A stretch of 64,000 nucleotides of DNA from a bacterium (GCA_023267595.1 JAHFNB010000002.1:87947-151946); one strand, 5' to 3'; shown: positions 7,938 to 49,303, counted from the first letter of the stretch. Notes: generated by a model not told the origin, from the sequence alone. Translations and numbers: made by a program.

Positions 7938-9143
7938 ATGTCAATGTTTGGAAATATTTTTAATAAAAAAAGAGTGTATCTTGATAATGGAGGAGCAACG
8001 CCACTATCTGCGCGTGCAAAGCATGTATTTTTATCTGCGTTAGATATGTATGGGAATCCATCATCTATTTTTAAAGAAGGAATAGAGGCTGAGAAACGTT
8101 TAGACGAAGCACGAAAGAAAATTGGAATAGTTATCAATGCCCGTGCTTATGAAATATATTTTACAGGTTCTGGAACAGAGAGTTGTAACCTTGCAATCCT
8201 GGGGACATATTATGCATGGAAAAAGGATAATGAATACGCAACCCATTTACCGCATATTATTATTTCTTCTATTGAACATCCGGCAATCATGGAAGTAGCA
8301 AATTATTTGGCACTTAATTCTCTTGCAAATATTACCTATCTTCCTGTGTATGAAAATGGCATTGTAAAAGTACAAGATGTAAAAAATGCAATTACCAAAG
8401 AAACTATTTTAATAAGTGTGATGTATGCGAATAATGAAATAGGAACAATACAACCAATAAAAGAAATTGGGCGCATGCTTGAGGAATATAAAAAAGAAAA
8501 TAAAAGTGTCTATCCATTGTTTCATACTGATGCATGTCAGGCGGGGAATTATTTAAACCTAGATGTATTTCGTCTGAAAGTGGATATGATGACTATTAAT
8601 AGTAGTAAAGTATATGGTCCAAAAGGGATAGGTGTTTTATATAAAAAAGAAGGAGTAACTATTTCTTCTATTTCATTTGGTGGTGGACAAGAACGAGGAT
8701 TACGTAGTGGTACAGAATCAGTGGCACTGGCTATGTCATTTGCGGAAGCATTAACCGAGGCACAAGAACTACGAGAAAAAGAAAATGCACGCCTTACATT
8801 ACTGCGAGATACATTTAAAGAAATAGTAGAAAAAAGATTACCACAGATAGTATTTTATGGTGTATGGGATGAACGATTACCAAATAATATTAATTGCCGT
8901 ATTCCTGGTATATCTAGTGAAGAAATGATTGTACGATTAGATACAAAAGGATTTTCTGTGTCACATAAATCCGCGTGTGCATCACAAATAGAGGATAGTA
9001 GTTATGTGATCCGTGCACTTGGTGCAACAGAAAAAGAAGCAAAAGAAAATATACGTATCACCTTAGGAAGAGAAACAACAGAAGATAATTTAAAGAGATT
9101 AGTTGATGCTATAGAGGAGATTGTGAAGAAATACAGTCACTAG
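7938..9143 (+). CDS. cysteine desulfurase (NifS/IscS-like class V aminotransferase)
   Basis: 401 aa. PLP-lysine region INSSKVYGPKGIGVLY and overall class-V fold signature. Confidence 0.8.
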   Translation: MSMFGNIFNKKRVYLDNGGATPLSARAKHVFLSALDMYGNPSSIFKEGIEAEKRLDEARKKIGIVINARAYEIYFTGSGTESCNLAILGTYYAWKKDNEYATHLPHIIISSIEHPAIMEVANYLALNSLANITYLPVYENGIVKVQDVKNAITKETILISVMYANNEIGTIQPIKEIGRMLEEYKKENKSVYPLFHTDACQAGNYLNLDVFRLKVDMMTINSSKVYGPKGIGVLYKKEGVTISSISFGGGQERGLRSGTESVALAMSFAEALTEAQELREKENARLTLLRDTFKEIVEKRLPQIVFYGVWDERLPNNINCRIPGISSEEMIVRLDTKGFSVSHKSACASQIEDSSYVIRALGATEKEAKENIRITLGRETTEDNLKRLVDAIEEIVKKYSH

Positions 9144-9210
9144 TTACTAGTCACTCGTTTGTAGTTGTATTACACTAGTAACTATCAACTAGTAACTAAC
9201 AACTAACCAT

Positions 9211-9771
9211 ATGTATACTGCAAAAGATTTTTCACATTTATTAGGAATAACGGGAATGAGTGACGCACTGCTTACTAAGCATTTTACGTTGTATCAAGGA
9301 TATGTAACCAATACAAATAAGTTACTTGAATTATTAAAAACCAAAGAATCAGGGACACCAGAGTTTGCGGAATTACATCGTAGATTTGGTTGGGAATGGA
9401 ATGGTATGCGATTGCATGAACTTTATTTTGGAAATATGGTAAAGGGTGGAGTTGCTTTAAGTGAAAGGATCTTGAAGCAAAAAATTGAAGCGACATGGGG
9501 AACAGTTGAGAATTGGCAAAAAGAATTTATTGGCATGGGTGCTATGCGTGGTATCGGATGGGTTATTCTTGCTCATGATAAAAAAGATGGTGCATTATTT
9601 AATGTATGGGTAAATGAACATGATAGTGGACATTTGGCAGGGCTTACACCATTACTTGTGATGGATGTATTTGAACATGCTTTTATGCTTGATTATGGAT
9701 TAAAGCGTCCGGATTATATTGCTGCGTTTATGTCATCTATCGATTGGCATGCAGTAGAGGAAAGAATATAA
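9211..9771 (+). CDS. Fe/Mn superoxide dismutase-family protein (possibly non-canonical metal site)
   Basis: C-terminal DVFEHAFMLDYGLKRPDYIAAFMSSIDWHAV matches the SOD C-domain signature DVWEHAYYxxYxNxRPDY. The N-terminal HHxKHH region reads LLTKHF here. Confidence 0.6.
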   Translation: MYTAKDFSHLLGITGMSDALLTKHFTLYQGYVTNTNKLLELLKTKESGTPEFAELHRRFGWEWNGMRLHELYFGNMVKGGVALSERILKQKIEATWGTVENWQKEFIGMGAMRGIGWVILAHDKKDGALFNVWVNEHDSGHLAGLTPLLVMDVFEHAFMLDYGLKRPDYIAAFMSSIDWHAVEERI

Positions 9772-9996: not shown

Positions 9997-10251
9997 TGTT
10001 CCCTCGTTATAGTACGATATGGTCCAAAATTAATTTATCATGTATATTATATTTGTCAAGTTGACTTAGGTATTTCATTTTGGCATTGTATATATATCCT
10101 GTATTGATTGCTTATCCACCACGAAAGAAAGGCTAAAATCTGTTACACTGTATATAGTATTTGAATTATTGTGAAAATGGTTTGTATGTATTGAATTTTT
10201 TTATTGTCTTTTCTATTAACTACAAACTAGTATCTATAAACTGTCCATTTT

Positions 10252-12948
10252 ATGCCTCCATCATTTAACAATTTCACCACAAAAGCAAAAGAGGTGATTC
10301 GTCGCGCTCATGAACTTGCAATTGAGCGTGGTCAGAATCAGGTATCCCCACTTCATTTGATGGGTGCTCTTCTTACACAAGAAGAATCTCTTGTACATGC
10401 AATCCTAGAGAGAATGGATATTGATTTAATACATCTTACGGATTCTATTGTGGATGCAATAGAAGTCCCGGGTGCATCTGCTACAATGTCTCCGTCGTAT
10501 CAGATGTATCTTACACCAGAACTAGCAGCAACATTGGAAAGTTCACTTAAGGTAGCACAATCACTTGGGGATGAATTTGTATCTACAGAACATTTGTTCT
10601 TAGCAGTGCTTGATACTCAAGGACAAGTGCGTGAAGTTCTTGCTCGTTTTCGTATCGATAGAGATGCGGCATATCATATATTAGAAGAACTTCGTTCACA
10701 GAATATTACTGAAGCACAAGGTCCGAAGAAAAATAAAGCCCTCGCAAAATATACACGTAATTTTACTGATCTTGCTCGTGCAGATAAATTAGATCCAGTT
10801 ATTGGACGTGATACAGAAATCATGCGACTTATGCAGATTCTTTCTCGTCGTACAAAAAATAATCCGATATTAATCGGAGAAGCAGGTGTGGGAAAGACAG
10901 CCGTTGTTGAAGGACTCGCAATTCGTATGGCACGAGGGGATGTACCAGAGAGTTTAAAAGATAAGGAACTTGTATCACTTGATTTAGGGACACTCATTGC
11001 AGGAACAAAATTTCGTGGAGAATTCGAAGAGCGATTAAAAGCAATTATGAAAGAAATTGAACGCTCAGCAGGAGGTATTATTTTATTTATTGATGAAATA
11101 CATACAATTGTTGGTGCAGGAGCAACAGAAGGGTCAGCAGATGCTGCAAACTTACTTAAACCTGCGCTTTCTCGAGGTGAACTTCGTGCAATAGGTGCAA
11201 CAACCTTAAAAGAATATCAAAAATATATTGAAAAAGATCCTGCACTTGCTAGACGTTTTCAACCTGTCTTTATAGAAGAGCCAAGTGAAGAAGATGCGCT
11301 TGCTATTTTGCGTGGTCTTAAAGAAAAATATGAACTATTCCACGGTGTTCGTATTACTGATAATGCACTTATCTCTGCAGTAAATCTCTCAACTCGTTAT
11401 ATTACGTCACGATTTTTACCAGATAAAGCAATTGATCTTATTGATGAAGCAGGGTCTGCACTTCGTATTGCACTTGAAAATAAACCTCCTATTTTAGATG
11501 AAGCACATAGAAAAATTATGCGTCTTGAAATTGAAAAAGAAGCACTTACCAAAGAATTGGTCACATCAGAAGGAGATACTGATGCTTCAACAAAGAAGCG
11601 TATTACAATTATTGAAGAAGAAATTGCAAATGTAAAAGAACGTACCCGCGAACTAGAACTTAAGTGGAAAAATGAAAAAAAGACACTTACTGAAATTGGA
11701 GAAATAAAAAAATCTCTTGAGTCACTTCGTACTGAGGCGGATAATGCTGAACTTCGTGCAGACTTAACACGTGTAGCAGAAATTCGTTATGGACAAATTC
11801 CAGATTTAACAAAAGAATTACATGAACGATTTGAAAAGTTAAAAAAATTGCAAAAGACTCGTAGAATACTTCGTGAAGAAATTACAGAAGAAGACATTGC
11901 CGGCGTGGTTGCAAAGTGGACAGGTATTCCTGTTGCTCGTATGCTTGAAGAAGAACAAGAAAAGTTATCACGCATGGAAGAAGAATTAGGAAAGCGTGTT
12001 GTTGCACAACGTGAAGCAATAGAAAAAGTCTCTGGTGCGGTACGAAGAAGTCGCGCAGGAATCAATGATCCATCTCGTCCTATTGGTTCCTTTATGTTCT
12101 TGGGTCCAACAGGAGTTGGAAAAACAGAACTTACCAAGGCACTTGCCGAGTTTATGTTTAATGATGAAAAAGCACTCATTAAAGTAGACATGAGTGAATA
12201 CATGGAAAAACACTCAACATCAAAGTTGATTGGTTCACCACCAGGATATGTTGGATATGAAGAATCAGGACAGTTAACAGAAGCAGTACGTCATCGACCA
12301 TACGCAGTAATTTTATTTGATGAAATAGAAAAAGCACATCCAGAAGTATTTAACCTTCTCCTTCAAGTTCTTGATGAAGGACGTCTTACAGATAGTAAGG
12401 GGCGTATTGTTAATTTCAAAAATACTATTATTGTAATGACTTCAAATATCGGTAGTCAGTATATTCAAAAGATGGAACAAATGGGATTTGTTAATCAAGT
12501 AGCAGGAGGTGAATATACACAGGTCAAAGAGCGTGTTATGGAAGCACTTAAAGATTTCTTTAAGCCAGAGTTTTTAAATCGGCTAGATGAAACAATTATT
12601 TTTGATGTACTTTCAAAAGAGGAAATCAAACATATTGTTGGGTTGCAGGTTGCATCACTTGCAAAGCGAATCTTGGAAAAAGATATTGTTTTAGAAGTAA
12701 GTAATAATGCAATTGCGTATATTACAGAAAAATCATATGATCCACATTTCGGTGCACGACCAATCAAGCGATTCATGCAAACACATATTTTAAATAAGGT
12801 TGCAACGATGATGCTTTCAAAGAAGTTTATGAAAGGTAGTGTTGCGTATGTAGATCTAGATAAAAAAGGTGAATTACAAGTTGAAGCAAGAAAACCAAAA
12901 AAGATTGTAAGTCCAATGACCAAAAAGGAAGTTATGACGAAGAAGTAG
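10252..12948 (+). CDS. clpB: ATP-dependent chaperone ClpB
   Basis: 898 aa. Clp N-domain, two AAA+ modules (GEAGVGKTA..., [10 protein letters not shown]), a long coiled-coil middle domain and a ClpB C-terminus. Confidence 0.95.
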
Positions 12949-12956
12949 AAATATAA

Positions 12957-12973
12957 GTGCGCCGGGCTGGATT
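12957..12973. repeat. 17-nt direct repeat gtgcgccgggctggatt (left copy; putative attL, a duplicate of the tRNA-Tyr 3' end)
   Basis: Exact match to 35948..35964, which is the 3'-terminal 16 nt of the minus-strand tRNA-Tyr. Confidence 0.7.
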
Positions 12974-13512: not shown

Positions 13513-13776
13513 ATGCAAAGTCATGATCCAAAACTAGTTAGACGTTTAAAGATTATTGAAGGCCAAGTGCGAGGGTTGCGCGAAATGGTAGAAAGAGGAG
13601 AATATTGCGTTGATGTTATAACGCAAAGCTCAGCTATAAAACAAGGTATATCAAATGTGGAGGATATTCTTTTGAAGAGCCATCTTTCAACATGTGTGGT
13701 AAAGCAAGTAAAAGAAGGTAATTCTGGGAAGGCTGTGGATGAGGTGCTTAAAATTTACCAACTAAAAAGAAAGTAA
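13513..13776 (+). CDS. csoR: CsoR/RcnR-family metal-sensing transcriptional repressor
   Basis: 87 aa. RLKIIEGQVRGLREMVERGEYCVDVITQSSAI is the DUF156/CsoR signature and includes the Cys metal ligand. Confidence 0.8.
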   Translation: MQSHDPKLVRRLKIIEGQVRGLREMVERGEYCVDVITQSSAIKQGISNVEDILLKSHLSTCVVKQVKEGNSGKAVDEVLKIYQLKRK

Positions 13777-16352: not shown

Positions 16353-16571
16353 ATGGAACACACTCACGAATCTGCGAGCAATACATTTTCAAGAAAGACC
16401 TGGTGGATAGTCTTCGCCATTGGTCTTGTCGGATTGGTATTTCTTCTAAGGGATCACACATCGCACGTTTTCTCAGTTCTGCCATTTCTCATTCTTCTGG
16501 CATGTCCCTTGATGCATCTCTTTATGCACAAAGGTCATGACGGCCACGATCACGGATCAGAAAATAAATAA
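16353..16571 (+). CDS. DUF2933-like small membrane protein with His-rich C-terminus
   Basis: One TM segment plus HLFMHKGHDGHDHGSE. Such proteins commonly precede P1B ATPases. Start set at the internal ATG MEHTHES to avoid overlap with the upstream ORF. Confidence 0.45.
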   Translation: MEHTHESASNTFSRKTWWIVFAIGLVGLVFLLRDHTSHVFSVLPFLILLACPLMHLFMHKGHDGHDHGSENK

Positions 16572-18699
16572 TATGGATCACTCCGCACACAAAATTGAGC
16601 ATAATACTCATGCTGGTCACGTGATGGGAGATACCTTAAAAATGACTTTGTGGGGAAAGTTGAAAATGAGTATGACGATGACCATGGGTATGGATCATAC
16701 TGGCCTTGCAGGCAGAGAGATGGCGCGTCTGATGGAAATTGATATAAGGAACAAGTTTTTCTTCTCCTTATTATTTACAATTCCTATAATCCTCTACTCC
16801 CCACTTGGAACAGAATACTTGAAACTTAGTCTTCCTTCCCCACTACCAATTCCGTGGTTACTGTTTATCTTAACCACACCAGTGTTTTTCTATTCTGGGT
16901 GGATTTTCTTGTACTCAACGTATATAGCTTTCAAGAATAAGACGCTTAACATGGCTGTTCTCGTAGCGGTTGGTATAACGGCTGCATACGCATTTAGTAT
17001 CCTTCTAACTTTTATTGGGAGCGCAGACTCATACTATGAAGCAGCAGCAATGCTTATAACCTTTGTTCTCTTTGGACATTGGATGGAGATGAAATCGAGA
17101 CGTGGCACAACAGATGCTCTTCAAGCCCTTTTTAATCTTGTACCCCCTCAAGCAAGAATATTCAAAGATGGAAAGGAGATTATGGTATCTACGGGAGACA
17201 TACAGCTTGGTGATATTATTATCTTGAAACCAGGAGACAAGGTTCCTGTAGACGGTGAAATAATTGAAGGAGAAACTGCAATTGACGAATCCCTAGTAAC
17301 AGGAGAATCAATCCCTACTTCTAAAAAAGTTGGGGATCAGGTTATTGGTGGATCAATCAATACCGCTGGTTCAGTGAAATTTAAAGCTACCAAAATTGGT
17401 AAAGATACCGCACTTGCACGTATTGTGGCGATGGTTGAAGAAGCACAGAACTCAAAGGCACCCGGGCAAAGAATAGCGGACAAGTTTGCAAAGTATCTCG
17501 TTATATTGGCAGTTGGATCAGGGGTTCTCGTTTTTGTAATCTGGTACTTTATTATGAGCGTGCCAATTCTGCTGGCTCTCTCTTTTGCAATTGCCACAGT
17601 TGTCATTGCTTGTCCTGATGCTTTAGGACTTGCTACACCAACTGCAGTTGCTGTAGCGACAGGGCTTGGAGCAAAACACAACATTCTTATAAAAGATGCT
17701 CCAACCCTTGAACAAGTTTCAAAGATTCAGGCAATTGTTCTTGATAAAACAGGTACTCTCACCGACGGAAAACCAACTGTTACTAATGTCGCAACTGTGG
17801 ACGGATATGATGAGGGTGAAGCACTTCGTTTAGTTGGTGCAGCAGAAGCCAAGTCCTCTCATCCACTCGCAGGCGCTGTGCTTGATGAGCTTAAGAGGCG
17901 AGGTCTTACATTGCCAGTGTCCGTTAATAAATTTGAGAATCTTTCTGGCTTAGGGGTTAAAGCTATTGTAGATGGAAAATCAGTACTCATTGGTACTGTT
18001 AAGCTTATGAAAGAAAGCAACGTTGCACTAGGCAGTATAGAGAATAAGATAAATGAGTTTTTGGAAAAGGGAGAAACGATTATGATTTTAGCAGTGGATG
18101 GTGAAATTAAAGCTGTGATTGGAGCAGAAGATCCAATAAAACCAAATGCCATTAAGGCAGTCGAGCGTTTGAAAGCACTAGGTATCGAGATCGCTATGAT
18201 TACGGGCGACAACAAAATGACTGCAGAAAAAGTGGCTAGTCAAATTGGTATAGAAAGAGTGTTTGCTGAAGTGATGCCTGAAGATAAAGCAACTTATGTC
18301 AAAAAGCTACAACAAGAGGGTAAGTTCACTGCAATGGTTGGAGATGGGGTTAATGACGCACCAGCTCTTGCTATTGCTGATGTTGGTATCGCTATTGGTG
18401 CTGGAACTGACGTAGCAATTGAGACTGCAAAGGTGGTCCTTATGAAGTCTGATCCTTTGGATATTCTTAGAGCCATAACTCTGAGCAAGGCAACTGTTCG
18501 TAAGATGAAGCAAAATCTTTTCTGGGCATCAATTTATAATGTTCTTGCGATACCGATTGCTGGTGGAATATTGTACCCGAGCTTCGGCATTATGCTTCGT
18601 CCAGAATTCGCAGCACTTCTTATGAGTGTGTCTTCGATAATCGTGGCCGTAAATGCAGTACTACTAAAGAGAGTGGAAAAGGACCTTATTGCTGTCTGA
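16572..18699 (+). CDS. heavy-metal (copper) translocating P1B-type ATPase with His/Met-rich N-terminus
   Basis: DKTGTLT phosphorylation site, TGES, GDGVNDAPALA, and transmembrane CPD (CPx-type) motif IACPDALGLATP. N-terminal HSAHKIEHNTHAGH/MTMTMGMDH replaces a CxxC HMA domain. Start chosen at ATG 16572 (the track start at 16537 overlaps the upstream ORF). Confidence 0.9.
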
Positions 18700-20343: not shown

Positions 20344-22131
20344 ATGAAAGAAAAAATCTTTTTAATTAAAAAGAGGTCTTTTGAGATAGTGGGTGGTTTA
20401 CAAAAAAATCAAAAGATCTCTCTTGCCATTGGTGCGCTTTTTGTTGCGGGAAGTATTGGTGTGCTTGTCTATGCTGATGCAGGACACGACACACCAGAAC
20501 CTGTCGCACTACAGCAATCAGAGCAAGTTATAGTTCGTAAAGTTGGGGATGTGGATGCCGATGCCATCTCTCAAGAAGGATTAAGTAGTTTCTTCGGTGA
20601 AGTTATATCGAAAGATATTGCTTCTGTTCACAGCTCTCGTGAAGGTGTGATTACTTCTTGGAATGTTTCAGTTGGTGACCGGGTTTCTGCTGGTACCGTT
20701 CTAGGATATGTGACTGTAACTGGGGTGTCACCTGAACAGCAGATGCAGTTAGCGGAGCAGCAAGCTAACGCACTTAAAGCTAAACTTGATCTTGATACGG
20801 TAAATACAATCGCCACTCAAACAGAATCTGTTTTTAGCAGAATCGCAGAATCATTACGGTCTGTTGCTGATAAACAAAAAGCTATTTATGACGGCACAAA
20901 CGGCAGTGTTACTTCAACATACCTCACTGAGCTTCAAGCTATTCAGTCTCGTCAAGCATCACTTGAAAAGAAGTTACAGGATTTTTCCAATACTGCGCTT
21001 AATGAAATATATCCATTAGTAAGCCAGTATGGACAGTCTCCATTTAACTCTGGATTCTCCGAAACTTCACTAAACCCGGATTTAGGGAATCGAAATAGTA
21101 GTTTAAGAAACATCTACGCGTCGCTTATAAAGCAGTTTGCTTCTAAGGTGACAAGTAGAACTGTGACCGATGACGATGTGAGGAACTTTCTCAATGAAAC
21201 AACTGATATTGTAGAGGCGACTTTACCTGATCAGTCAGTCAGCACAGAAGGAATTACTACTGCTGTAAAAGACCTACAAACTGAATTAAGAGATATATCT
21301 AATGAACTATCTCAAGCAACAATTGACAAAACTGCAAAGGAGAGAGAAAGAAGTCAGGTGGAGATTGAGCTTCTAAGGAGTTTATCTGGATTTGATAATG
21401 ATCTAAGTTTGAAGAAGCTGGAACAGCTATCCGCTGGAGAGAGAGCAAAAAATGAAGCAAAGGCGGCAGAGCTTCTTGCTCAAAAACTCTCTGTAAGCGC
21501 TGGTGGAGTGGTCCCAGTTTTAGCATCAAAAAGCGGAATAGTAGCATCCATAGAAAAGAATGTTGGCGACTATGTTTCTGTTACAGACAAGATTGGGCTT
21601 ATCTCTAATCAAAACCCTACAAAAATAGTTCGCTTCACTGTTCCCTCCTCATGGAGAGACATCAAGAAAGGTGACGCTCTTTCTCTTATCTGGAAGGCGG
21701 ATTTTAAGCCAGGAAGCGCAGTTATCACGGGTATTAGTCCAATCCTCAATGAAAATGGTGGACATCAAGCTGAAGCAGTTCTCTCTAAGAGTACTGTTTT
21801 CCCTGTGGGGTCATCAGTTAGACTTATTCCTGAAAATTCAAAGAAGGGAGTTTTTATTAACTCTAAAGCCGTCGTGTTTGATAACCTAAAGCCTTTTGTT
21901 TGGTTGGTTACAGAAAGTGACACGATAAGAAAACAGGAGATTGTTCCAGGTCGTCAACTTGGTGAATATGTCGAAGTCTTAAGCGGACTTGAAATTGGCT
22001 ACGGGTACTTAGTAATTTTAGACTCATCAGTAAGTTTGGAAAATGGGAAAAAGATATCTGAAATTATAAAAACCACAACCGTAGCACCAGCGCCTACTAT
22101 TCAAGATGAGAGTGTGCCTCACGAACATTAA
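20344..22131 (+). CDS. RND efflux periplasmic adaptor (membrane fusion protein, CusB-like) with long coiled coil
   Basis: N-terminal TM segment, lipoyl-like REGVITSWNVSVGDRVSAGTVLGYV, long coiled-coil insert, C-terminal beta-barrel, terminal HEH. Confidence 0.7.
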   Translation: MKEKIFLIKKRSFEIVGGLQKNQKISLAIGALFVAGSIGVLVYADAGHDTPEPVALQQSEQVIVRKVGDVDADAISQEGLSSFFGEVISKDIASVHSSREGVITSWNVSVGDRVSAGTVLGYVTVTGVSPEQQMQLAEQQANALKAKLDLDTVNTIATQTESVFSRIAESLRSVADKQKAIYDGTNGSVTSTYLTELQAIQSRQASLEKKLQDFSNTALNEIYPLVSQYGQSPFNSGFSETSLNPDLGNRNSSLRNIYASLIKQFASKVTSRTVTDDDVRNFLNETTDIVEATLPDQSVSTEGITTAVKDLQTELRDISNELSQATIDKTAKERERSQVEIELLRSLSGFDNDLSLKKLEQLSAGERAKNEAKAAELLAQKLSVSAGGVVPVLASKSGIVASIEKNVGDYVSVTDKIGLISNQNPTKIVRFTVPSSWRDIKKGDALSLIWKADFKPGSAVITGISPILNENGGHQAEAVLSKSTVFPVGSSVRLIPENSKKGVFINSKAVVFDNLKPFVWLVTESDTIRKQEIVPGRQLGEYVEVLSGLEIGYGYLVILDSSVSLENGKKISEIIKTTTVAPAPTIQDESVPHEH

Positions 22132-22136
22132 AATAT

Positions 22137-25100
22137 ATGTTCAAGAAAATAGTAACGTGGTCAACAATCAATAGAAGTAGGACGCTATTTCTGGCAGTCT
22201 TATTCACTGTTTTGGGTATCTTTGCAGGAATGAATATGGAGGTAGACGTACTACCAAATATTAACAAACCAACGGTAGTTGTATTTGCTGAAGCAGATGG
22301 TTTTGCACCAGAAGAAGTTGAAAGGGCAGTCTTGATACCTTTAGAAAATGCGATCCTTGGAACTGCTAATGTGGAGCGAGTTCGCGGGACTGCTTCTTTT
22401 GCACTCGGTATCGTAAATATTGAATTTCCTTTTGGAAGTGATATTTACAAAAATAGGCAGCTTGTACAAGAAAGAATTTCTAGCATACAGATGCCAGCAA
22501 ATGTACGAGTGTCCCTTGGACCCGTAAGTTCTGTCATGGGAGAAATAATGTGGGCGGGTGTAAAAGGAGGAAATAACTTAAGCTCTTCCGAACTACGTAC
22601 CTATGTAGACTTTACCATGAGGCCCAACCTTCTTAAGGTAAAAGGAATTTCAGATGTGATCGTTATGGGTGGAGATGTTTTGGAGTGGCAAGTGAGACTA
22701 AATGCCGATGCCTTAGATAGACATAAAATTACTCAAGAAGAAATCAACGAGGTCTTACGAAGAAACTTACAAAATTCTTCAGGTGGAATTTTGTCTCAAC
22801 AAAATAAGGAATATCCTATTCGGGTATTCGTTGCACCAAAGGAAATGGAAGAACTTGCCGACATTGCTATCCAAACAGAGGATGGAGTTGTAAGACTGGG
22901 TGAAATTGCTTCCTTTGTGGAGGGCGCAAGCTTAGTGCGAGGCAGTGCATCAGTTGATGGTGAACAAGGAATTATTCTTCGAATATTTAAGCAACCGAAT
23001 GCGGAGACACTCAAGGTCAGTAAGGAAATTGATGCCTTATTTTCTGATCTACAAAAGACAGCACCAACGGGTGTAGTTTTGCGTACTGATTTATTTAGAC
23101 AAGAATGGTTTATATCCGCAGGTCTTCTCAATGTAGAAAAGGCTCTCGTTGAGGCATTGCTCATTGTGGCCTTGATTGTATTCCTCTTTCTCATCAAGTG
23201 GAAACCAACCCTCATCACTCTTCTTGCTATACCAACTTCCATTGCAGTAACCGCCATCATATTTTACTTGTTAGGGCTGTCTGTTAACGTGATGACCCTT
23301 GGAGGTATTGCGGTTGCGATTGGGGAACTGGTGGATGATGCTATCGTGAGCGTGGAAAACATCATAAAACGTCTTCGGGGTAGAAAAGTACAAGGATTGG
23401 AACGATTAAAAGTCATCGTGAATGCCGTGCAAGAAGTTCGTGGGTCTATTATTTATGCCACCGTACTTGTTGTCTTGGTTTTCGTGCCTGTGTTTTTCCT
23501 TCCTGGAGTAGAAGGCAAGCTATTAACTTCACTTGGACTTGCGTATATTGTTTCTCTTATCGCTTCGCTTATCGTGTCTCTTACGCTTACCCCCGCTCTT
23601 GCATCGTTTATGTTAAATGATGAAGATAATGAAGAAAAACCGTCCAAAGTTGTCCACTACATAGAAGCTAGGACAGAACACATCTTAAGAAGAGTTATTG
23701 ATTCTTGGAAAATAATCTCTGCTACGTTTATTGTAATGATTCTCGCTACAGTATTGTTGTATGTAAACGCCGGAAAGGAAGGCATTCCTCCGTTTAACGA
23801 GGACTCTCTTACGATTGGAGTAGTGTTACCAAATGGAACAGGACTAGAAACAACTAATCTTTTCGTCCAGAATGTCGGGTCGCAGATAAAAGCTCTTCCT
23901 TTTGTTTCTGGTGTAAGCAATACCACAGGTCGCGCTGGAGCAGATGCTCATGCTAGTGGGGCAAATTCTGGTGAAATGCAGGTAGTTTTTAAGGAGGGAT
24001 CCACAAAGAAATTAGATGAGTATATTTTGGAAGTTCAAAATATACTTAATAAATATTCTGGGGCAAGTTTCTCACTCGGAAAACCTATTACTCACAGGGT
24101 TGAGGAACTGCTTTCAGGAGTGCGTGCTCCTATTGTTATTAAACTCTATGGAGATGATGTAGAAGCACTTAGAAACTATGGTAACGTCGTGATAAATGCT
24201 CTCCACTCTCAGGCAGGAGTAAGTAACGCTCAGCTGTCTCGGGATGTTAAGGTTTCTGAAATACATATATATCCAGATAAGACGATACTTACAGGTCTCG
24301 GTAAGGATGCTGGATTGATTGGAGAAGAAATCGAGTCAGGATTAATAGGAAATAAGGTGGGTGAAATAGTTTCAGGTCTTCAAAGAATCTCTGTTGTCAC
24401 TAAATTTGATAGCGAAAGTAGAAGCTCTTTTGGTGGGTTGCGCGATACAACCATTGGAGGCACTGCAATGAATGTGGGTAACCTTGCAAGTATTGAATTT
24501 AACGAAGGAAGAACTTCTATTAGTCATGAAGGTGGCAAAAGAGTCGTCATCGTGAGCGCAAACTATGAAGGAGGAGACATTATCGGAGCGGTTGATGCAG
24601 CTAAGGAGATATTAGACAATAGCGCTCGTCCAGAAAATATCACAACAAGTTATGAGGGCACGTATCAAAGCCAAAAAGAAAATAGTACTAGATTAGCGTT
24701 ATTGTTTATTGTTGTTATTCTACTGATTGCGGTAATACTCTACACAGCTTTTTCTTCGTGGATACTTTCAGCTCTCGTGCTACTTAATATTCCTGTTGCT
24801 TTCTTTGGTGGACTTATCTTTGTTTACCTAGAAGGAGGAACGATCAGTTTGGCTCACTTGGTCGGATTCATATCACTTGCAGGAATTGCTTCTAGAAACG
24901 GAATCATGCTTATTTCAAGAGTTCAAGAATTAAGTAAGGAAAGTAGTGATCTCACTAAAACAGAAGTTATCATACATGCCACAAAAGAAAGAGTGGTCCC
25001 AGTACTGATGACTTCCATTGTCACAGCGTTAGCGCTCATTCCGTTCATCCTGGGTGCCAGTGCTCCTGGCAAGGAATTCCTTTCTCCTCTTGCAGTAGTT

Positions 25101-25184
25101 ATTACGGGTGGTCTTGTTACTTCTACTATTACTTCACTTCTCTTTATACCAATTATTCTAAACAAGTTAAAAGATAGAATTTAA
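22137..25184 (+). CDS. RND efflux transporter permease, heavy-metal (CusA/CzcA-like) family
   Basis: 1015 aa, 12-TM AcrB/CusA architecture. The N-terminal sequence is typical of HME-RND pumps. Immediately downstream of the adaptor. Confidence 0.9.
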   Translation: MFKKIVTWSTINRSRTLFLAVLFTVLGIFAGMNMEVDVLPNINKPTVVVFAEADGFAPEEVERAVLIPLENAILGTANVERVRGTASFALGIVNIEFPFGSDIYKNRQLVQERISSIQMPANVRVSLGPVSSVMGEIMWAGVKGGNNLSSSELRTYVDFTMRPNLLKVKGISDVIVMGGDVLEWQVRLNADALDRHKITQEEINEVLRRNLQNSSGGILSQQNKEYPIRVFVAPKEMEELADIAIQTEDGVVRLGEIASFVEGASLVRGSASVDGEQGIILRIFKQPNAETLKVSKEIDALFSDLQKTAPTGVVLRTDLFRQEWFISAGLLNVEKALVEALLIVALIVFLFLIKWKPTLITLLAIPTSIAVTAIIFYLLGLSVNVMTLGGIAVAIGELVDDAIVSVENIIKRLRGRKVQGLERLKVIVNAVQEVRGSIIYATVLVVLVFVPVFFLPGVEGKLLTSLGLAYIVSLIASLIVSLTLTPALASFMLNDEDNEEKPSKVVHYIEARTEHILRRVIDSWKIISATFIVMILATVLLYVNAGKEGIPPFNEDSLTIGVVLPNGTGLETTNLFVQNVGSQIKALPFVSGVSNTTGRAGADAHASGANSGEMQVVFKEGSTKKLDEYILEVQNILNKYSGASFSLGKPITHRVEELLSGVRAPIVIKLYGDDVEALRNYGNVVINALHSQAGVSNAQLSRDVKVSEIHIYPDKTILTGLGKDAGLIGEEIESGLIGNKVGEIVSGLQRISVVTKFDSESRSSFGGLRDTTIGGTAMNVGNLASIEFNEGRTSISHEGGKRVVIVSANYEGGDIIGAVDAAKEILDNSARPENITTSYEGTYQSQKENSTRLALLFIVVILLIAVILYTAFSSWILSALVLLNIPVAFFGGLIFVYLEGGTISLAHLVGFISLAGIASRNGIMLISRVQELSKESSDLTKTEVIIHATKERVVPVLMTSIVTALALIPFILGASAPGKEFLSPLAVVITGGLVTSTITSLLFIPIILNKLKDRI

Positions 25185-30317: not shown

Positions 30318-30572
30318 TTTAGCGTGGGATTAATCTGTGTCAGGCAACAAAAATGGTCCCCCGATACAGCGACAATCTCCGAAGAGACGTCCCTCAACCT
30401 TTCAGTTGAGGACCCACGCTAATGAATGCCGATCAGGAGACCGTTTTTATTAGCGTGGGTTTTGTCAGCCATGACACCATAATTAAAAGTGTTTTAGGCT
30501 ACAAATATTCAATTGTCCATACTATTATCGCAGAAAAAGGCTAAATAAACAATTATTCTGTCAAGGTTAAAT

Positions 30573-34275: not shown

Positions 34276-34349
34276 CACTAAAAGGCGGTCCTTTCCGATA
34301 ATACAGGCTTCGGCTATGTGTATTGGATGAGCAGGACCGCCTTTTAGTG
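34276..34349. repeat. 17-bp perfect inverted repeat (cactaaaaggcggtcct / aggaccgccttttagtg) with 40-nt spacer, just upstream of the recombinase start
   Basis: Read directly from the sequence. The right arm ends 10 nt before the ATG at 34359. Confidence 0.6.
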
Positions 34350-34358
34350 TTATTAATT

Positions 34359-36014
34359 ATGAACAACAATATCAAGTGGGTAATATATGCGCGTAAGTCA
34401 ACAGAATCAGAAGATAAACAGATTCAATCAATTGACGACCAAACTAAATACATGCGAGAGATCGCAACGCGCGAAGGTTTGAATGTGATCGAAATCATTA
34501 CTGAATCAAAATCTGCAAAAGTGAAAAATAACCGTGAAGGGTTTAGTAGACTTCTTTCACTTATTGATTCAGGAAAGGTCCAAGGTATTCTTTGTTGGAA
34601 AATGGATCGTCTTTCGCGCAACCCTGTAGAAAGTGCGAATATTCAAGAGGCTCTACAACTACGAAAACTGGAATGTATATATACAGCCGAAAGAAAGTAC
34701 TGGCCTGAAGATAATGCTCTCATCTTTGCAGTTGAACAAGGAATGGCCAATCAGTACTCACGCGACCTTTCAAAAAATGTGAAGCGTGGTATGCAATCAA
34801 AAGCTGAAAAAGGATGGTTCCCGAATATTCCTCCTATTGGTTATCTAAATTCAAAACTAAGAGACAAAGGTAATGAGACTATTTTGATAGATGAGGAGCG
34901 ATTTAAAATTGTAAGAAAAATGTGGGATCTTATGCTTACAGGAACATATTCATTACCTCAAGTTCTTAGAATAGCCACTAATGATTGGGGACTTACCACG
35001 CCAACTAGAAAGAAACTTGGTGGAAAAGCTGTATCTATAAGCTATGTATACCTAATGTTTTCTAACGAGTTCTATACAGGAACATTTAAGTATTCAGGGA
35101 AAATATATCAAGGCAAACATAAGCCAATGATCACAAGAGATGAATTTGATAAGGTCCAAATGATTCTTGGAAAGAAAGGTAAACCAAGAGCAAAAACACA
35201 TTCTTTCCCTTTTACAGGACTGCTTCATTGTTCTGACTGTAGCGCAATCATTACCGCTTCTGAAAAACAAAAGCTTGTTAAGTCTACTAACACTGTGAAT
35301 ACATATGTCTACTATCACTGCACGAAGAGGAAGAAGTACGTTAAATGCTATTCGGCTCCAATTCGCGTAGAGGAACTAGAGAAGCAGGTAATATCACTGA
35401 TAGAGAAAAATTCTATTAATCAGAAGTTCTATGACCTTGCATTAGAAGTATTTAAAGGAATGCATGAAGTTGAGGTTGATACTCGCCAGGCTATTTATTC
35501 TACACAGTTAAGAAACGTAGAAGTAACGCAAGCCAAGATTGATAGAGCTAAGACATTTCTTTTTAATGGAACAATTTCTGAAGAAGAGTACAAGACACAA
35601 AAGGCAGAATGTGAAAGTGATTTAGTAAGACAAAAAGCTCAGCTACTTGAAACAGAGAAGCGCGCGCAAAATTGGAACCAATTAACTGAAGACGCTTTTC
35701 ACTTTGCAAAATATGCAATCAATGCATTTTCATCCGATGATAATCAAATCAAAAAAGAAGTAATAACTAGCTTAGGTTGGAACCATGAAATAAAAAGCAA
35801 AGAAGTCTTAATCAATCTGCATTCATGGTTTACGGTACTAAAAAATGGTGAAATTGATATAACAGAACAGATGAGACGGTTGGAACTAAACAAAACCCTT
35901 ACACCCGAACGACGAAAAGAGGCATCAGCCTCAATTCATACTAGGTTGTGCGCCGGGCTGGATTTGAACCAGCGAAGCCCGAAGGGCGACAGATTTACAG
36001 TCTGTTGTGATTGA
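34359..36014 (+). CDS. large serine recombinase (resolvase/invertase N-domain + recombinase domain + zinc ribbon)
   Basis: VIYARKSTESEDKQ...DRLSRN catalytic-domain motifs (Ser nucleophile in YARKST). About 550 aa, with a Cys cluster HCSDCS...HCTKRKK. The C-terminal 66 nt overlap the antisense tRNA-Tyr. Start moved to the ATG encoding MNNNIKWVIY. Confidence 0.85.
   Translation: MNNNIKWVIYARKSTESEDKQIQSIDDQTKYMREIATREGLNVIEIITESKSAKVKNNREGFSRLLSLIDSGKVQGILCWKMDRLSRNPVESANIQEALQLRKLECIYTAERKYWPEDNALIFAVEQGMANQYSRDLSKNVKRGMQSKAEKGWFPNIPPIGYLNSKLRDKGNETILIDEERFKIVRKMWDLMLTGTYSLPQVLRIATNDWGLTTPTRKKLGGKAVSISYVYLMFSNEFYTGTFKYSGKIYQGKHKPMITRDEFDKVQMILGKKGKPRAKTHSFPFTGLLHCSDCSAIITASEKQKLVKSTNTVNTYVYYHCTKRKKYVKCYSAPIRVEELEKQVISLIEKNSINQKFYDLALEVFKGMHEVEVDTRQAIYSTQLRNVEVTQAKIDRAKTFLFNGTISEEEYKTQKAECESDLVRQKAQLLETEKRAQNWNQLTEDAFHFAKYAINAFSSDDNQIKKEVITSLGWNHEIKSKEVLINLHSWFTVLKNGEIDITEQMRRLELNKTLTPERRKEASASIHTRLCAGLDLNQRSPKGDRFTVCCD
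35948..35964. repeat. 17-nt direct repeat gtgcgccgggctggatt (right copy; within the tRNA-Tyr 3' end, putative attR)
   Basis: Exact match to 12957..12973. Confidence 0.7.
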
Positions 36015-36032
36015 CCACTCCACCACCGACGC
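35949..36032 (-). tRNA. tRNA-Tyr (anticodon GTA), type II
   Basis: Reverse complement: acceptor gcgtcgg/ccggcgc. Anticodon arm acaga-ctGTAaa-tctgt. Long variable arm. T-arm ctggttcaaatccag. No encoded CCA. Confidence 0.8.
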
Positions 36033-36636: not shown

Positions 36637-36690
36637 TATTTGTATTGTATTTACTATAAACTAGTAACTATCAACTAAAAACTATTAATT

Positions 36691-37068
36691 ATGGATATAG
36701 AAGCACGAAAGAAAGAATTATCACCAGAAGAAAATCATGTGCTCTTTAATGGTGGTACAGAAATACCATTTTCTGGTGAATTATTAAACGAAGAACGTAA
36801 TGGAAAGTTTTTATGCAAAGTATGCCATACTCCACTTTTTAACTCTGATGCAAAGTTTGATTCAGGAACTGGGTGGCCATCATTTGATCAGGCACTGCCA
36901 CATGCAGTGGAATATATTGATGATACAAGTATGGGAATGATTCGTCGTGAAGTGAGATGTGCAACATGTCACGCCCATTTGGGACACGTATTTCCAGATG
37001 GTCCAACAACTACAGGGAAGAGATATTGTATGAATTCAGTATGTCTTACATTTGAAGAGAAAAAATAA
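36691..37068 (+). CDS. msrB: peptide methionine (R)-S-oxide reductase MsrB
   Basis: CxxC...CxxC zinc site, GWPSF, and RREVRCATCHAHLGHVFPDGP. Confidence 0.9.
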   Translation: MDIEARKKELSPEENHVLFNGGTEIPFSGELLNEERNGKFLCKVCHTPLFNSDAKFDSGTGWPSFDQALPHAVEYIDDTSMGMIRREVRCATCHAHLGHVFPDGPTTTGKRYCMNSVCLTFEEKK

Positions 37069-39271: not shown

Positions 39272-39302
39272 TAAAAAGTCCTCCTATGGAGGACTTTTTA
39301 TT
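39272..39302 (+). terminator. intrinsic terminator (agtcctcc-tat-ggaggact + T-run)
   Basis: aaaaagtcctcctatggaggactttttatt. It overlaps the track start of the leuS ORF, which argues for the later ATG. Confidence 0.6.
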
Positions 39303-39348
39303 ATATAGAGAGTTTCTTTTCCATAATTTTATTGTTAGTATAGATACT

Positions 39349-43277: not shown

Positions 43278-43388
43278 AGGTAAATGTTGGAAGTTAGAAG
43301 GTGGAAAAAATAATGACGTCGTAGACGTCATTATTTTTGTTTAAACTAGTCCCTAGTTCCTATAATCTGCTTTTGGTATACTAGGTTC

Positions 43389-48397: not shown

Positions 48398-48826
48398 ATG
48401 GCATTATACTCAAAAGAAGATTTACTTATGATGATAAAAGAAGCCGGGCTTCGAATAACTGATCATCGATTATCAGTACTCTCATTTTTGGCAAAAGTAA
48501 AACAACCTATAACGGTATATGAACTTGTTGATTCGCTTCGGAAAAAAGATAACATTGACCAAGCAACGGTGTATCGTAACTTAGACACACTCCATGAAGC
48601 AGGATTGTTACGACGCTTAGATTTTAATCATGGTCATGCACATTATGAGTTAGAAACTGGACGTCCATCACATCAACTTGTTTGTAGTAATTGTGAGACT
48701 GTAGAAAAAATAGAAGGTATTTCTATTGATGATACAATAAAAAAAATGTTGAAAAAGAGTAAAAAATTCAAACATACAACCACACATTCAATGGAACTCT
48801 ATGGGTTATGTAGAAATTGCATTTAA
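48398..48826 (+). CDS. Fur-family transcriptional regulator (Zur-like by context)
   Basis: Winged-helix Fur N-domain and C-terminal CxxC pair VCSNC...LCRNC. Divergent from the ZIP transporter. Confidence 0.8.
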   Translation: MALYSKEDLLMMIKEAGLRITDHRLSVLSFLAKVKQPITVYELVDSLRKKDNIDQATVYRNLDTLHEAGLLRRLDFNHGHAHYELETGRPSHQLVCSNCETVEKIEGISIDDTIKKMLKKSKKFKHTTTHSMELYGLCRNCI

Positions 48827-48847
48827 GATTTTGTTATACTATGTCAT

Positions 48848-49303
48848 ATGATTCAACTCAATAAAAAAGCGCCTACTTTTATACTTCCTGATCAAGATGG
48901 AAAGATACATCGTCTACAAGACTATTTGGGTAAAAAAGTTCTTCTTTATTTTTATCCGAAAGATGATACTCCAGGGTGTACTACAGAAGCATGTAACTTT
49001 CGTGACGGTTATAAAGAATTTACAAAAATAGGGTTAGTTATTTTAGGAGTGAGTGCGGATTCTGTAAAAAGTCATAAAAAGTTTGCAGAAAAGTTTAAAC
49101 TTCCATTTCCTCTTTTATCTGATGAAGACAAAAAAGTATGTGAAAAATATGGTGTATGGCAGAAGAAAAAATTTATGGGACGCGAATATATGGGTATTGT
49201 CCGCAGTAGTTTTTTAATTGATGAAGAAGGTAAAATTGCAAAAATCTATAATGAAGTAAAAGTGAAAGATCATGCAGAAGAAGTAAAGAAAGATAGTAAA
49301 TAA
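48848..49303 (+). CDS. bcp: thiol peroxidase Bcp (peroxiredoxin)
   Basis: FYPKDDTPGCTTEAC peroxidatic-Cys motif. Confidence 0.85.
   Translation: MIQLNKKAPTFILPDQDGKIHRLQDYLGKKVLLYFYPKDDTPGCTTEACNFRDGYKEFTKIGLVILGVSADSVKSHKKFAEKFKLPFPLLSDEDKKVCEKYGVWQKKKFMGREYMGIVRSSFLIDEEGKIAKIYNEVKVKDHAEEVKKDSK

What the first reader, a model, noticed from the sequence alone, without database searches (positions are those of the whole stretch)
9139..9210. Tandem heptad AACTNNN direct repeats forming a shared motif upstream of three stress-response genes
The 5' region of the SOD-like gene reads ACTagtAACTatcAACTagtAACTaacAACTaac, five AACT units at a 7-nt period. An 18-nt block of it, actagtaactatcaacta, recurs exactly 14 nt upstream of msrB (36660..36677). 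A 17/19 match, aaactagtatctataaact, sits 10 nt upstream of clpB (10224..10242). All three downstream genes are oxidative or proteotoxic stress genes. The motif position, overlapping the core promoter and 5' UTR, and its heptad direct-repeat architecture recall CtsR-type operators (tandem heptads) with a different consensus. An undescribed stress regulon operator is plausible.
Basis: seen in the sequence. Interest (0 to 1): 0.6.

Follow-up and report, generated by a model that had tools for sequence, protein, structure and literature searches.

The report
Heptad-repeat leaders upstream of stress genes
Three stress genes (sod, clpB, msrB) of this Shine-Dalgarno-poor candidate-phyla-radiation bacterium are each preceded by five 7-nt units with an invariant CTA, ending at a fixed distance from the start codon; the element is real and non-random, but it looks like an mRNA leader related to the unexplained TAACTGA heptamer repeats of other bacteria, not like a CtsR-type DNA operator.

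Summary
(CTA-N4)x4 occurs only upstream of sod, clpB and msrB, always on the sense strand (5 matches, 0.00 expected). All three arrays have five heptads ending 2-5 nt before the ATG.

The organism is a Paceibacteria-like CPR bacterium. About 7% of its genes have an SD-like motif. In 968 kb of related loci, period 7 is the only enriched periodicity upstream of genes (38 genes, against 3 at period 6 or 8). CTA is the top core and TAG is never seen. sod and clpB are enriched (OR 6.4). The canonical form is five CTA units at -36 to -8.

In several relatives the array overlaps the 3' end of iscS, so it is anchored to the start codon and not to a promoter. CtsR, CIRCE and PerR consensus sequences are absent.

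Similar AACTANN arrays abut start codons of housekeeping genes in Bacteroidota, Cyanobacteria and other CPR. This matches the TAACTGA repeats described in 2015, whose function is unknown.

Best reading: a start-codon-anchored, G-poor heptad leader acting post-transcriptionally. A stress-regulon DNA operator remains a weaker rival.

Side finding: 23S-IVS-type four-helix-bundle genes are flanked by inverted heptad arrays.

The parts
9175..9209 (+). sod heptad array: five CTA-N4 units (CTAGTAA CTATCAA CTAGTAA CTAACAA CTAACCA) at -36 to -2 relative to the ATG
9139..9158 (+). Reverse-oriented heptads (ACTAGTT ACTAGTC ACTCGT) overlapping the iscS stop codon. They form the left arm of an imperfect inverted repeat with the sod array. 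TAGTTACTAGT at 9141-9151 is perfectly complementary to ACTAGTAACTA at 9174-9184.
   Evidence: The RNA fold is not significant (z -1.2). Relatives hold an IVP gene between such arms.
9166..9173 (+). TGTATTAC, a -10-like box aligned with TGTATACT of relatives. This is a putative sod promoter element and is inferred only.
   Evidence: Upstream sequences. The consensus scan did not call it.
9211..9771 (+). Fe/Mn superoxide dismutase-like gene (186 aa)
10213..10247 (+). clpB heptad array: CTATTAA CTACAAA CTAGTAT CTATAAA CTGTCCA (-39 to -5). The fifth unit is degenerate.
10252..12948 (+). clpB (898 aa)
36654..36688 (+). msrB heptad array: CTATAAA CTAGTAA CTATCAA CTAAAAA CTATTAA (-37 to -3)
36637..36690 (+). 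The 54-nt msrA-msrB spacer that carries the array. It is absent from relatives: the spacer is 5 nt in L002 and the ORFs overlap in L001. The module was therefore gained here.
36691..37068 (+). msrB (SelR domain, 125 aa)
43346..43362 (+). Weak three-unit CTA-N4 site (CTAGTCC CTAGTTC CTA), 27 nt before the ATG of an unannotated 508-aa ORF. Its membership is doubtful.

Best explanation
Each array is a start-codon-anchored heptad-repeat leader. Five units of (A)ACUA-N2/3, with an invariant CUA every 7 nt, few G and no Shine-Dalgarno sequence, fill roughly -36 to -2 of the sod, clpB and msrB mRNAs.

The element acts on the RNA at translation initiation. It offers an unstructured, periodic landing site to the SD-independent ribosome or to a single-strand RNA-binding factor with a 7-nt register. 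Candidates are the tandem OB folds of bS1, cold-shock-domain proteins, KH proteins, or a ring-shaped oligomer. This would give these leadered mRNAs efficient and possibly co-ordinated translation, in an organism where most genes are leaderless or SD-less.

It is the CPR counterpart of the TAACTGA-type heptamer direct repeats that replace SD sequences in Beggiatoaceae, Cyanobacteria and Bacteroidetes.

Shown: the architecture, the periodicity, the strand bias, the register relative to the ATG, and the enrichment at sod and clpB.

Inferred: that the array is transcribed, that it acts at translation, and the direction of the effect.
For: - Specificity in the window.
- Related CPR loci: a trinucleotide recurring at least 4 times upstream of genes is found at period 7 in 38 genes, against 3 at period 6 and 3 at period 8. 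The counts are CTA@7 = 11 and TAG@7 = 0.
- Register: the last CTA is at -8 in 9 of 19 arrays. Five units span -36 to -8 in window sod, L005 sod, L147 sod, L133 clpB and L139 HIT. The spacers all differ.
- The iscS ORF ends 14-21 nt before the sod ATG, inside the array, in L147, L151, L156, L159 and L206. Where a promoter box is recognisable, its distance varies. The array therefore follows the ATG.
- Composition: arrays have 10% G against 18% elsewhere, and only 5% have SD-like 4-mers. About 7% of window genes have an SD-like 4-mer.
- Diverse genomes: of 130 AACTANN arrays, an ORF start lies within 12 nt in 17 cases in sense orientation and 1 in antisense. The genes are atpG, atpC, rpsM, rpmA, fusA and similar. 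Other genes of those loci again show period-7 arrays only (47 against 0-3).
- Precedent: PMC4679880 and the Nostoc preprint.
Against: - There are no transcription start data. In the window a -10-like box abuts the first unit, so unit 1 may not be transcribed.
- Enrichment at stress genes is also what a regulon operator would show. So is the sequence homogenisation within a genome: 18 nt shared by sod and msrB, and 15 nt shared by L139 sod and clpB, against a mean of 6.2 between genomes.
- The diverse-genome sample was selected with my own AACTA pattern.
- No trans-acting factor has been identified.
- No organism has experimental proof that such repeats act in translation.
- Close relatives lack the array or carry a different one (L003 at 89% and L001/L002 at 82-86% SOD identity). 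It is therefore dispensable or turns over fast.
Confidence: 0.55

Rival explanations
1. The array is a DNA operator of an undescribed stress regulon. A repressor or activator binds the tandem heptads on double-stranded DNA at and just downstream of the promoters of sod, clpB and msrB.
For: - The motif is restricted to three stress genes in the window.
- sod and clpB are enriched for arrays in relatives. Arrays also occur before an HtrA-like protease, HIT and iscS.
- Arrays of different genes within one genome resemble each other more than arrays between genomes.
- The array starts next to a -10-like box.
Against: - A 7-bp period places successive sites on different faces of the helix. Known direct-repeat operators use about 10-11 bp.
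- Only 3 nt per unit are conserved, and the spacers are free.
- Orientation and G depletion are strict.
- The register is fixed to the ATG and not to a promoter, and the array overlaps the iscS ORF end in relatives.
- The unit sequence is not conserved in orthologous positions at 82-90% protein identity.
- There is no CtsR, HrcA or PerR consensus.
- No regulator gene is linked to the arrays. The only nearby regulators are CsoR, which lies inside an island, and a Fur-family gene next to an array-less peroxiredoxin.
Confidence: 0.17
2. The arrays have no function for the downstream gene. Heptamer tandem repeats arise easily by slippage. Alternatively they are left behind as arms of IVS-like four-helix-bundle gene cassettes. 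They persist only where a G-poor unstructured spacer is tolerated, which is just upstream of SD-less start codons.
For: - Turnover among close relatives is fast.
- The sod array is a 14-nt tandem duplication with one mismatch.
- The msrB module is a recent gain that shares 18 nt with sod.
- Six close relatives carry an IVP gene or remnant between inverted heptad arms at exactly the iscS-sod spacer. The window keeps an inverted pair there.
- Heptamers are the commonest long simple repeats in bacteria (Mrazek 2007, as cited in PMC4679880).
Against: - Within an array the spacers differ while CTA is invariant. This points to selection on the core and not to recent duplication.
- The same five-unit, -36 to -8 architecture recurs in different gene families and genomes.
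- Sense orientation outnumbers antisense 17 to 1 next to start codons.
- The clpB and msrB arrays have no partner arm.
Confidence: 0.2
3. The motif is simply the organism's generic promoter or generic 5'UTR composition.
For: Other leaders in the window are also A/T/C-rich and contain ACTA or CTAA words.
Against: - Only 3 of about 59 genes carry three or more phased units.
- Many other genes show a TATACT box 5-12 nt before the ATG and no array.
- Period 7 is absent from most upstream regions.
Confidence: 0.03

Closest known systems
TAACTGA heptamer direct repeats of marine Beggiatoaceae, Cyanobacteria and Bacteroidetes (MacGregor 2015, PMC4679880)
   Same: - Tandem 7-nt units share the AACT core (TAACTGA in tandem reads AACTGAT).
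- There are 2-6 copies in forward orientation within a few nt of the start codon.
- They replace the SD sequence and sometimes overlap the end of the upstream ORF.
- The host genomes are SD-poor.
- The repeats occur in ribosomal-protein operons.
- The function is unproven, and S1, Csp and CsrA have been proposed as binders.
   Different: - Here the units are degenerate: only CTA or AACTA is fixed and the spacers vary.
- The copy number is typically exactly five, with a fixed register of -36 to -8.
- The host is a CPR bacterium.
- Only a few genes carry the array, and they are biased to sod and clpB. BOGUAY has about 170 sets with no functional pattern.
Contiguous heptamer repeats near start codons in Nostoc PCC 7120 (bioRxiv 10.1101/2022.06.06.494920)
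   Same: Three to eight heptamers lie within 30 nt of, or overlap, the start codon of several genes. A role in translation or in promoter access has been proposed.
   Different: The units differ (TTCAAAA, GACYAAT). The reporter data are inconclusive. The taxon is a cyanobacterium.
CtsR operator (Firmicutes class III heat-shock repressor)
   Same: It is a tandem heptad direct repeat upstream of clp genes (own knowledge).
   Different: - The consensus is RGTCAAA-NAN-RGTCAAA with a 10-bp period and two units on dsDNA.
- That consensus is not present here beyond chance.
- No CtsR gene was seen in the window.
TRAP and HutP binding sites (Bacillus)
   Same: - The sites are triplet cores separated by non-conserved spacers on single-stranded leader RNA.
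- HutP uses UAG-N4, which is a 7-nt period.
- The sites are bound by ring oligomers.
- TRAP sites at trpG and trpP overlap the initiation region.

All of this is from own knowledge.
   Different: - The core is NAG or UAG and not CUA.
- No TRAP or HutP gene is known here.
- Those systems control antitermination or SD occlusion.
G-poor, CAA/ACAAUUAC-repeat translational enhancers such as the TMV omega leader, which substitutes for an SD in E. coli
   Same: The leader is unstructured, nearly G-free and repetitive. It works without an SD, presumably through S1 (own knowledge).
   Different: The origin is viral or eukaryotic. The repeats have 3- or 8-nt periods. There is no fixed register to the AUG.
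23S rRNA intervening sequences encoding PF05635 proteins
   Same: In relatives the sod array is one arm of a perfect inverted repeat that encloses a PF05635 gene. This resembles an IVS stem with the ORF in the loop.
   Different: The cassette lies between protein-coding genes and not in rRNA. The window itself has no such gene.

Membership tests
TAACTGA-type heptamer direct repeats upstream of start codons | Two or more tandem 7-nt units | tested here: met
   There are five phased units at each of the three genes.
TAACTGA-type heptamer direct repeats upstream of start codons | Forward orientation, ending within a few nt of the start codon | tested here: met
   The arrays end 1, 2 and 4 nt before the ATG, all on the sense strand.
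TAACTGA-type heptamer direct repeats upstream of start codons | No Shine-Dalgarno sequence between repeat and start codon, in an SD-poor genome | tested here: met
   There is no GGAG, GAGG or AGGA upstream of the three genes. About 7% of window genes have one.
TAACTGA-type heptamer direct repeats upstream of start codons | The unit sequence is exactly TAACTGA | tested here: not met
   The units are TAACTAT, CAACTAG, TAACTAA and CAACTAA in that register. Only AACT is shared.
CtsR operator | Consensus RGTCAAA-NAN-RGTCAAA | tested here: not met
   There are 14 hits with up to 3 mismatches against 13.5 expected. None is at the three loci.
CtsR operator | A CtsR repressor gene in the genome | not testable with these tools
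   Only 64 kb of the genome is available. No CtsR domain was found among the roughly 50 window proteins scanned.
CIRCE/HrcA | TTAGCACTC-N9-GAGTGCTAA | tested here: not met
   There are 0 hits with up to 3 mismatches.
PerR/Fur box | TTATAATNATTATAA 7-1-7 palindrome at sod, msrB or clpB | tested here: not met
   There are 25 hits against 19.6 expected. The only one nearby, at 36645-36659, has 3 mismatches.
Curated RNA families (Rfam 15) | A match at or above the gathering score over the arrays | tested here: not met
   Only tRNAs and a LOOT RNA were found in the window.
Structured 5'UTR hairpin or terminator | A fold more stable than shuffled sequence | tested here: not met
   The z-scores are -1.2 (sod), -0.2 (msrB) and -0.2 (clpB).
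IVS-like PF05635 cassette | A four-helix-bundle ORF enclosed by complementary heptad arms | tested here: not met
   There is no PF05635 homologue in the window by tblastn. Only an 11-bp perfect, or 24-nt 79%, inverted pair remains at sod.
TRAP/HutP-type triplet-repeat RNA operator | A cognate ring-shaped RNA-binding protein and demonstrated RNA binding | not testable with these tools
   No candidate gene was identified, and the test requires biochemistry.

The most novel reading that the evidence does not exclude
The heptad arrays may be the nucleic-acid targets of the enigmatic PF05635 '23S rRNA intervening-sequence / four-helix-bundle' proteins, which are Avd-like. The two PDB relatives have five chains per entry.

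These genes are almost always enclosed by inverted heptad-periodic arms: 7 of 7 in my loci and most of 13 found independently on plasmids. Six close relatives carry one, or a remnant, exactly between iscS and sod, with the right arm forming the sod leader.

A pentamer reading five 7-nt units (5 x 7 = 35 nt, -36 to -2) would be a TRAP-like translational regulator. The cassettes would be 'mRNA intervening sequences' whose stems are processed like rRNA IVSs.
Probability: 0.12. Interest if true: 0.85.

Novelty: new variant of a known kind. Interest (0 to 1): 0.6.

Why it matters
How ribosomes find start codons without a Shine-Dalgarno sequence is an open question. The lineages concerned include CPR, Bacteroidota, Cyanobacteria and many uncultured bacteria.

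The element found here has a sharply defined, start-codon-anchored architecture: five CUA-N4 units at -36 to -8. It recurs across gene families and genomes of a CPR clade. It has looser counterparts in other SD-poor phyla.

This gives a concrete sequence that can be synthesised and tested as an SD substitute or as the binding site of a translational regulator. It also extends the unexplained TAACTGA-repeat phenomenon to the CPR.

The bias towards sod, clpB, msrB and an HtrA-like gene suggests that reduced-genome symbionts may co-ordinate stress proteins post-transcriptionally.

The link between heptad arrays and PF05635 genes offers a first functional lead for a large protein family of unknown function.

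Tried and rejected
- **Hairpin or terminator reading.** RNA folds of the three upstream regions are no better than shuffled sequence. Only sod has a partner arm.
- **Known operators.** CtsR, CIRCE and PerR/Fur consensus scans are at chance.
- **Known RNA family.** Rfam at gathering threshold finds none.
- **Sigma-70 consensus scan.** It called nothing at the arrays.
- **Generic promoter or generic leader.** Rejected by the window-wide scans and by the list of upstream regions.
- **Three-frame stop-codon barrier** (TAA or TAG every 7 nt). Only 27 of 61 units have TAA or TAG after the C, and the conserved C is not explained.
- **Fetching the rest of the source contig.** The SOD product and its 100% cluster representative are not in the gene-position index. 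An edge gene returned only a 2.9-kb contig. No whole-genome scan of the source organism was therefore possible.
- **Sequence conservation of the motif in orthologous positions.** The exact sequence is not conserved at 82-90% SOD identity. Only the architecture is.

Full report
**1. The observation**

The three sequences are present as described. Read in the register CTA-N4, each gene has five heptads directly before its start codon.

- sod: 9175-9209, CTAGTAA CTATCAA CTAGTAA CTAACAA CTAACCA, then T, then ATG.
- msrB: 36654-36688, CTATAAA CTAGTAA CTATCAA CTAAAAA CTATTAA, then TT, then ATG.
- clpB: 10213-10247, CTATTAA CTACAAA CTAGTAT CTATAAA CTGTCCA, then TTTT, then ATG.

The 18-mer shared by sod and msrB is exact. 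The statistics are as follows.

- The 18-mer with up to 3 mismatches gives 4 hits against 0.15 expected.
- The AACT-N3 x3 pattern with up to 1 mismatch gives 9 hits against 0.91 expected.
- CTA-N4 x4 gives 5 hits against 0.00 expected.

All hits are in these three places and on the sense strand. ACTAGT as such is not over-represented. Pfam confirms Sod_Fe_C, ClpB and SelR/MsrB.

**2. The organism and its translation signals**

DUF5671, DUF4446 and the names attached to SOD homologues (Paceibacterota, Nomurabacteria, Parcubacteria) place the window in the CPR/Patescibacteria. About 7% of window genes have an SD-like 4-mer. In 18 of 55 genes a TATACT-like box lies 5-12 nt before the ATG, which marks them as leaderless candidates. 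The three array-bearing genes are therefore unusual in having a 35-45-nt G-poor leader.

**3. Relatives**

The order iscS-sod-(X)-clpB ... msrA-msrB-HIT is conserved in relatives. In the window a roughly 23-kb integrated element separates clpB from msrA (see section 8).

The exact motif is not conserved upstream of orthologues.

- L003 (89% SOD identity) has a short leader.
- L001 and L002 (82-86%) have none.
- L005/L006 (90%) have a different array: CTAATAG CTAACGT CTAACGT CTAATAA CTACCCC, then T, then ATG.

The msrA-msrB spacer that carries the array is 54 nt in the window. It is 5 nt in L002 and the ORFs overlap in L001, so the module was gained here.

A protein-guided metagenome scan gave 80 further loci at 59-83% SOD identity. 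Many of them have heptad arrays before sod, with other unit sequences.

**4. Statistics on 968 kb of CPR loci (788 non-redundant ORFs)**

- Periodicity. A trinucleotide recurring at least 4 times at a fixed spacing in the 65 nt upstream of a gene is found at period 7 for 38 genes. The count is 3 at period 6 and 3 at period 8.
- Core and strand. The leading cores are CTA (11), AAC (9) and ACT (6). TAG, the complement of CTA, scores 0.
- Families. For runs of at least 4 / at least 3 / family size, the counts are sod 12/22/73 and clpB 5/11/24. Among genes with at least 50 nt of upstream spacer, sod plus clpB score 25/65 against 44/496 for the rest (OR 6.4, p = 4.5e-9).
- Other carriers. Sense arrays also precede an HtrA-like Trypsin_2 protease, HIT, iscS, DprA, DUF2238, a T4SS pilin and an RsmI-like methylase.
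- Register. Aligned on the ATG, the last CTA lies at -8 in 9 of 19 arrays. Five units span exactly -36 to -8 in window sod, L005 sod, L147 sod, L133 clpB and L139 HIT. The positions are -37 to -9 in window msrB, -35 to -7 in the L206 protease gene and -39 to -11 in L138 clpB. The spacers differ while CTA is invariant.
- Upstream ORF. In L147, L151, L156, L159 and L206 the iscS ORF (about 400 aa) stops 14-21 nt before the sod ATG, which is inside the array. Where a TATACT box is recognisable, its distance from the array varies. The array therefore follows the start codon and not a promoter.
- Composition. Arrays have 10% G against 18% in other upstream regions.
- Within-genome similarity. Arrays of different genes are sometimes homogenised within a genome. 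The longest common substrings are 18 nt (window sod/msrB), 15 nt (L139 sod/clpB) and 10 nt (L138), against a between-genome mean of 6.2.

**5. Beyond the CPR**

Most were Bacteroidota, Cyanobacteria, CPR, Planctomycetota and Acidobacteriota.

Of 130 arrays, 35 have an ORF start within 60 nt in sense orientation, against 12 in antisense. Within 12 nt the counts are 17 against 1. The downstream genes include atpG, atpC, rpsM, rpsQ, rpsH, rpmA, fusA, nusA, gatA and rubrerythrin, recognised from their N-termini.

Genes of those loci that were not used for the selection again show period-7 arrays (47 of 579). Other periods give 0-3. The heptad-periodic leader is therefore a genome-wide habit of several SD-poor lineages.

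**6. Literature**

MacGregor 2015 (PMC4679880) described TAACTGA direct repeats in Beggiatoaceae, Cyanobacteria and Bacteroidetes.

- There are 2-6 copies, mostly in forward orientation.
- The largest class ends 1 nt before the start codon.
- They replace the SD sequence and sometimes overlap the upstream ORF.
- They include ribosomal-protein operons.
- Downstream genes show no functional pattern.
- S1, Csp and CsrA were proposed as binders, and there has been no experimental test.

A Nostoc preprint reports heptamers at start codons with inconclusive reporter data. My searches found nothing on CPR.

**7. Interpretation**

Four features argue for an RNA-level, translation-initiation element and against a CtsR-like dsDNA operator.

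- The period is 7 nt. This is out of phase with the DNA helix, but it is typical of single-strand binders such as HutP (UAG-N4) and CspB (one protein per heptamer).
- The conserved core is only 3 nt, and the spacers are free.
- The array is strictly sense-oriented and G-poor.
- It is anchored to the ATG.

CtsR, CIRCE and PerR consensus sequences are absent. No Rfam family matches. The regions do not fold better than shuffled sequence.

In other phyla the arrays precede highly expressed housekeeping genes. I therefore favour an SD-substitute or landing-pad role over a repressor site, but this step is inferred.

The element is rare in the window, it is enriched at sod and clpB in the clade, and it is homogenised within genomes. 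Against a general oxidative-stress regulon, several genes lack it: the peroxiredoxin next to a Fur-family regulator (48398-49303), msrA and a DsbA-like gene.

A neutral origin, by slippage or as cassette remnants, also remains possible. It does not explain the invariant core or the repeated five-unit register.

**8. Side findings**

a. PF05635 (23S_rRNA_IVP) genes and heptad arms.
- The Pfam match for the L139 protein has E = 6e-40.
- The genes lie between iscS and sod in L128, L133, L136 and L139. Remnants lie there in L135 and L138.
- They are enclosed by perfect inverted repeats made of the heptads: 24/24 in L139 and 29/29 in L128. The right arm is the sod leader.
- The arms differ between genomes but stay complementary within each genome.
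- All 7 family members in my loci are flanked in this way.
- Of 13 genes found independently by protein similarity on plasmids of Nostocales, Riemerella and others, most also have inverted arms, usually 7-periodic. Such arrays are otherwise rare in the surrounding 28-40 kb, at 0-13 per locus.
- The cassettes sit inside operons: cas6-IVP-cas4, cas10-IVP-cmr3 and iscA-IVP-sufB.
- The PDB relatives 2GSC and 2RLD have five chains per entry.
- The window has no such gene. It keeps an inverted pair at sod.

b. Integrated element. A 17-bp direct repeat, GTGCGCCGGGCTGGATT, occurs at 12957 and at 35948, the end of a tRNA gene. The two copies bracket a roughly 23-kb element carrying a serine recombinase, CsoR, a P-type ATPase, RND efflux genes, a cupredoxin, a macro domain, a Toprim protein and a LOOT RNA.

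**9. Verdict**

The element is best filed as a new, sharply defined variant of the heptamer-repeat leaders already described in other bacteria. It differs in having a degenerate unit with a CTA core, five copies, a fixed register, a CPR host and a bias towards stress genes. The mechanism is unproven.

Noticed in passing
L128 9500-10000; L133 1000-1505; L136 3320-3825; L139 2080-2562; L138 9614-9790; L135 283-402; also L087, L115, L121 and L208-L221: Genes of the PF05635 '23S rRNA intervening sequence / four-helix-bundle' family are enclosed by inverted arms that are mostly heptad-periodic. The left arm is G/T- or purine-rich and the right arm is A/C- or pyrimidine-rich. The arms are perfect at 24/24 in L139 and 29/29 in L128. 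They differ between genomes but stay complementary within each genome. The cassettes sit inside operons: iscS-sod, cas6-cas4, cas10-cmr3 and iscA-sufB. My literature searches found no mention of this.
   Followed up: partly
window 12957-35964: A roughly 23-kb integrated element lies between clpB and msrA. It is bracketed by a 17-bp direct repeat, GTGCGCCGGGCTGGATT, at 12957 and 35948. The second copy is the end of a tRNA gene at 35949-36032(-). The element carries a serine recombinase (34323-36014), CsoR (13513-13776), a P-type ATPase (16537-18699), HlyD/AcrB efflux genes (20344-25184), a cupredoxin protein, a macro-domain protein and a Toprim protein. Relatives L001 and L002 lack it.
   Followed up: partly
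window 30371-30500 (-): There is an Rfam LOOT RNA match (RF03000, 63.3 bits against a gathering score of 46.4) inside the integrated element.
   Followed up: no
window 39286-42201 (+): The leucyl-tRNA synthetase carries a NUDIX domain (residues about 404-524) inserted next to the editing domain.
   Followed up: no
window, whole: The genome is SD-poor. About 7% of ORFs have GGAG, GAGG or AGGA at -20 to -4. In 18 of 55 ORFs a TATACT-like box lies 5-12 nt before the ATG, which suggests many leaderless mRNAs.
   Followed up: partly
window 48398-49303 (+): A Fur-family (PerR-like) regulator gene is followed by an AhpC/TSA peroxiredoxin gene. Neither has a heptad array. The peroxiredoxin looks leaderless (TTATACT atgtcat ATG).
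   Followed up: no
L046 900-6350 (Levyibacteriota); L019 1250-7400 (Saccharibacteria): In other CPR phyla the intercistronic spacers of the ribosomal-protein operon carry CTA-periodic heptads. An example is CTAGAAG CTAAACG CTAGAAG CTAAACG before rplO, rpsK and rpsD. They often have the reverse-complement heptads just upstream, giving significant hairpins (z = -2.4 for L046).
   Followed up: partly
L159 1123-1153; L160 3339-3369; L161 5087-5124; L174 2258-2281: Heptad arrays such as ACTAAAA ACTTAAA ACTAAAA ACTGATA ACT lie about 650 nt upstream of sod. This appears to be inside, or in frame with, the iscS coding region, just before the conserved FHTDAVQ motif. I did not check whether this segment is translated or interrupts the gene.
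   Followed up: no
L144 8370-8436; L146 8500-8568; L168 13290-13351: Ribonucleotide reductase small-subunit genes are preceded by a different, G-containing heptad array (GTCGTAA GTCGTCA GTGGTCA GTCGTAA). Period 7 is therefore not tied to the CTA core.
   Followed up: no
window 43346-43362 (+): This is the only other phased CTA-N4 site in the window, with three units (CTAGTCC CTAGTTC CTA). It lies 27 nt before the ATG of an unannotated 508-aa ORF and overlaps promoter-like boxes.
   Followed up: no
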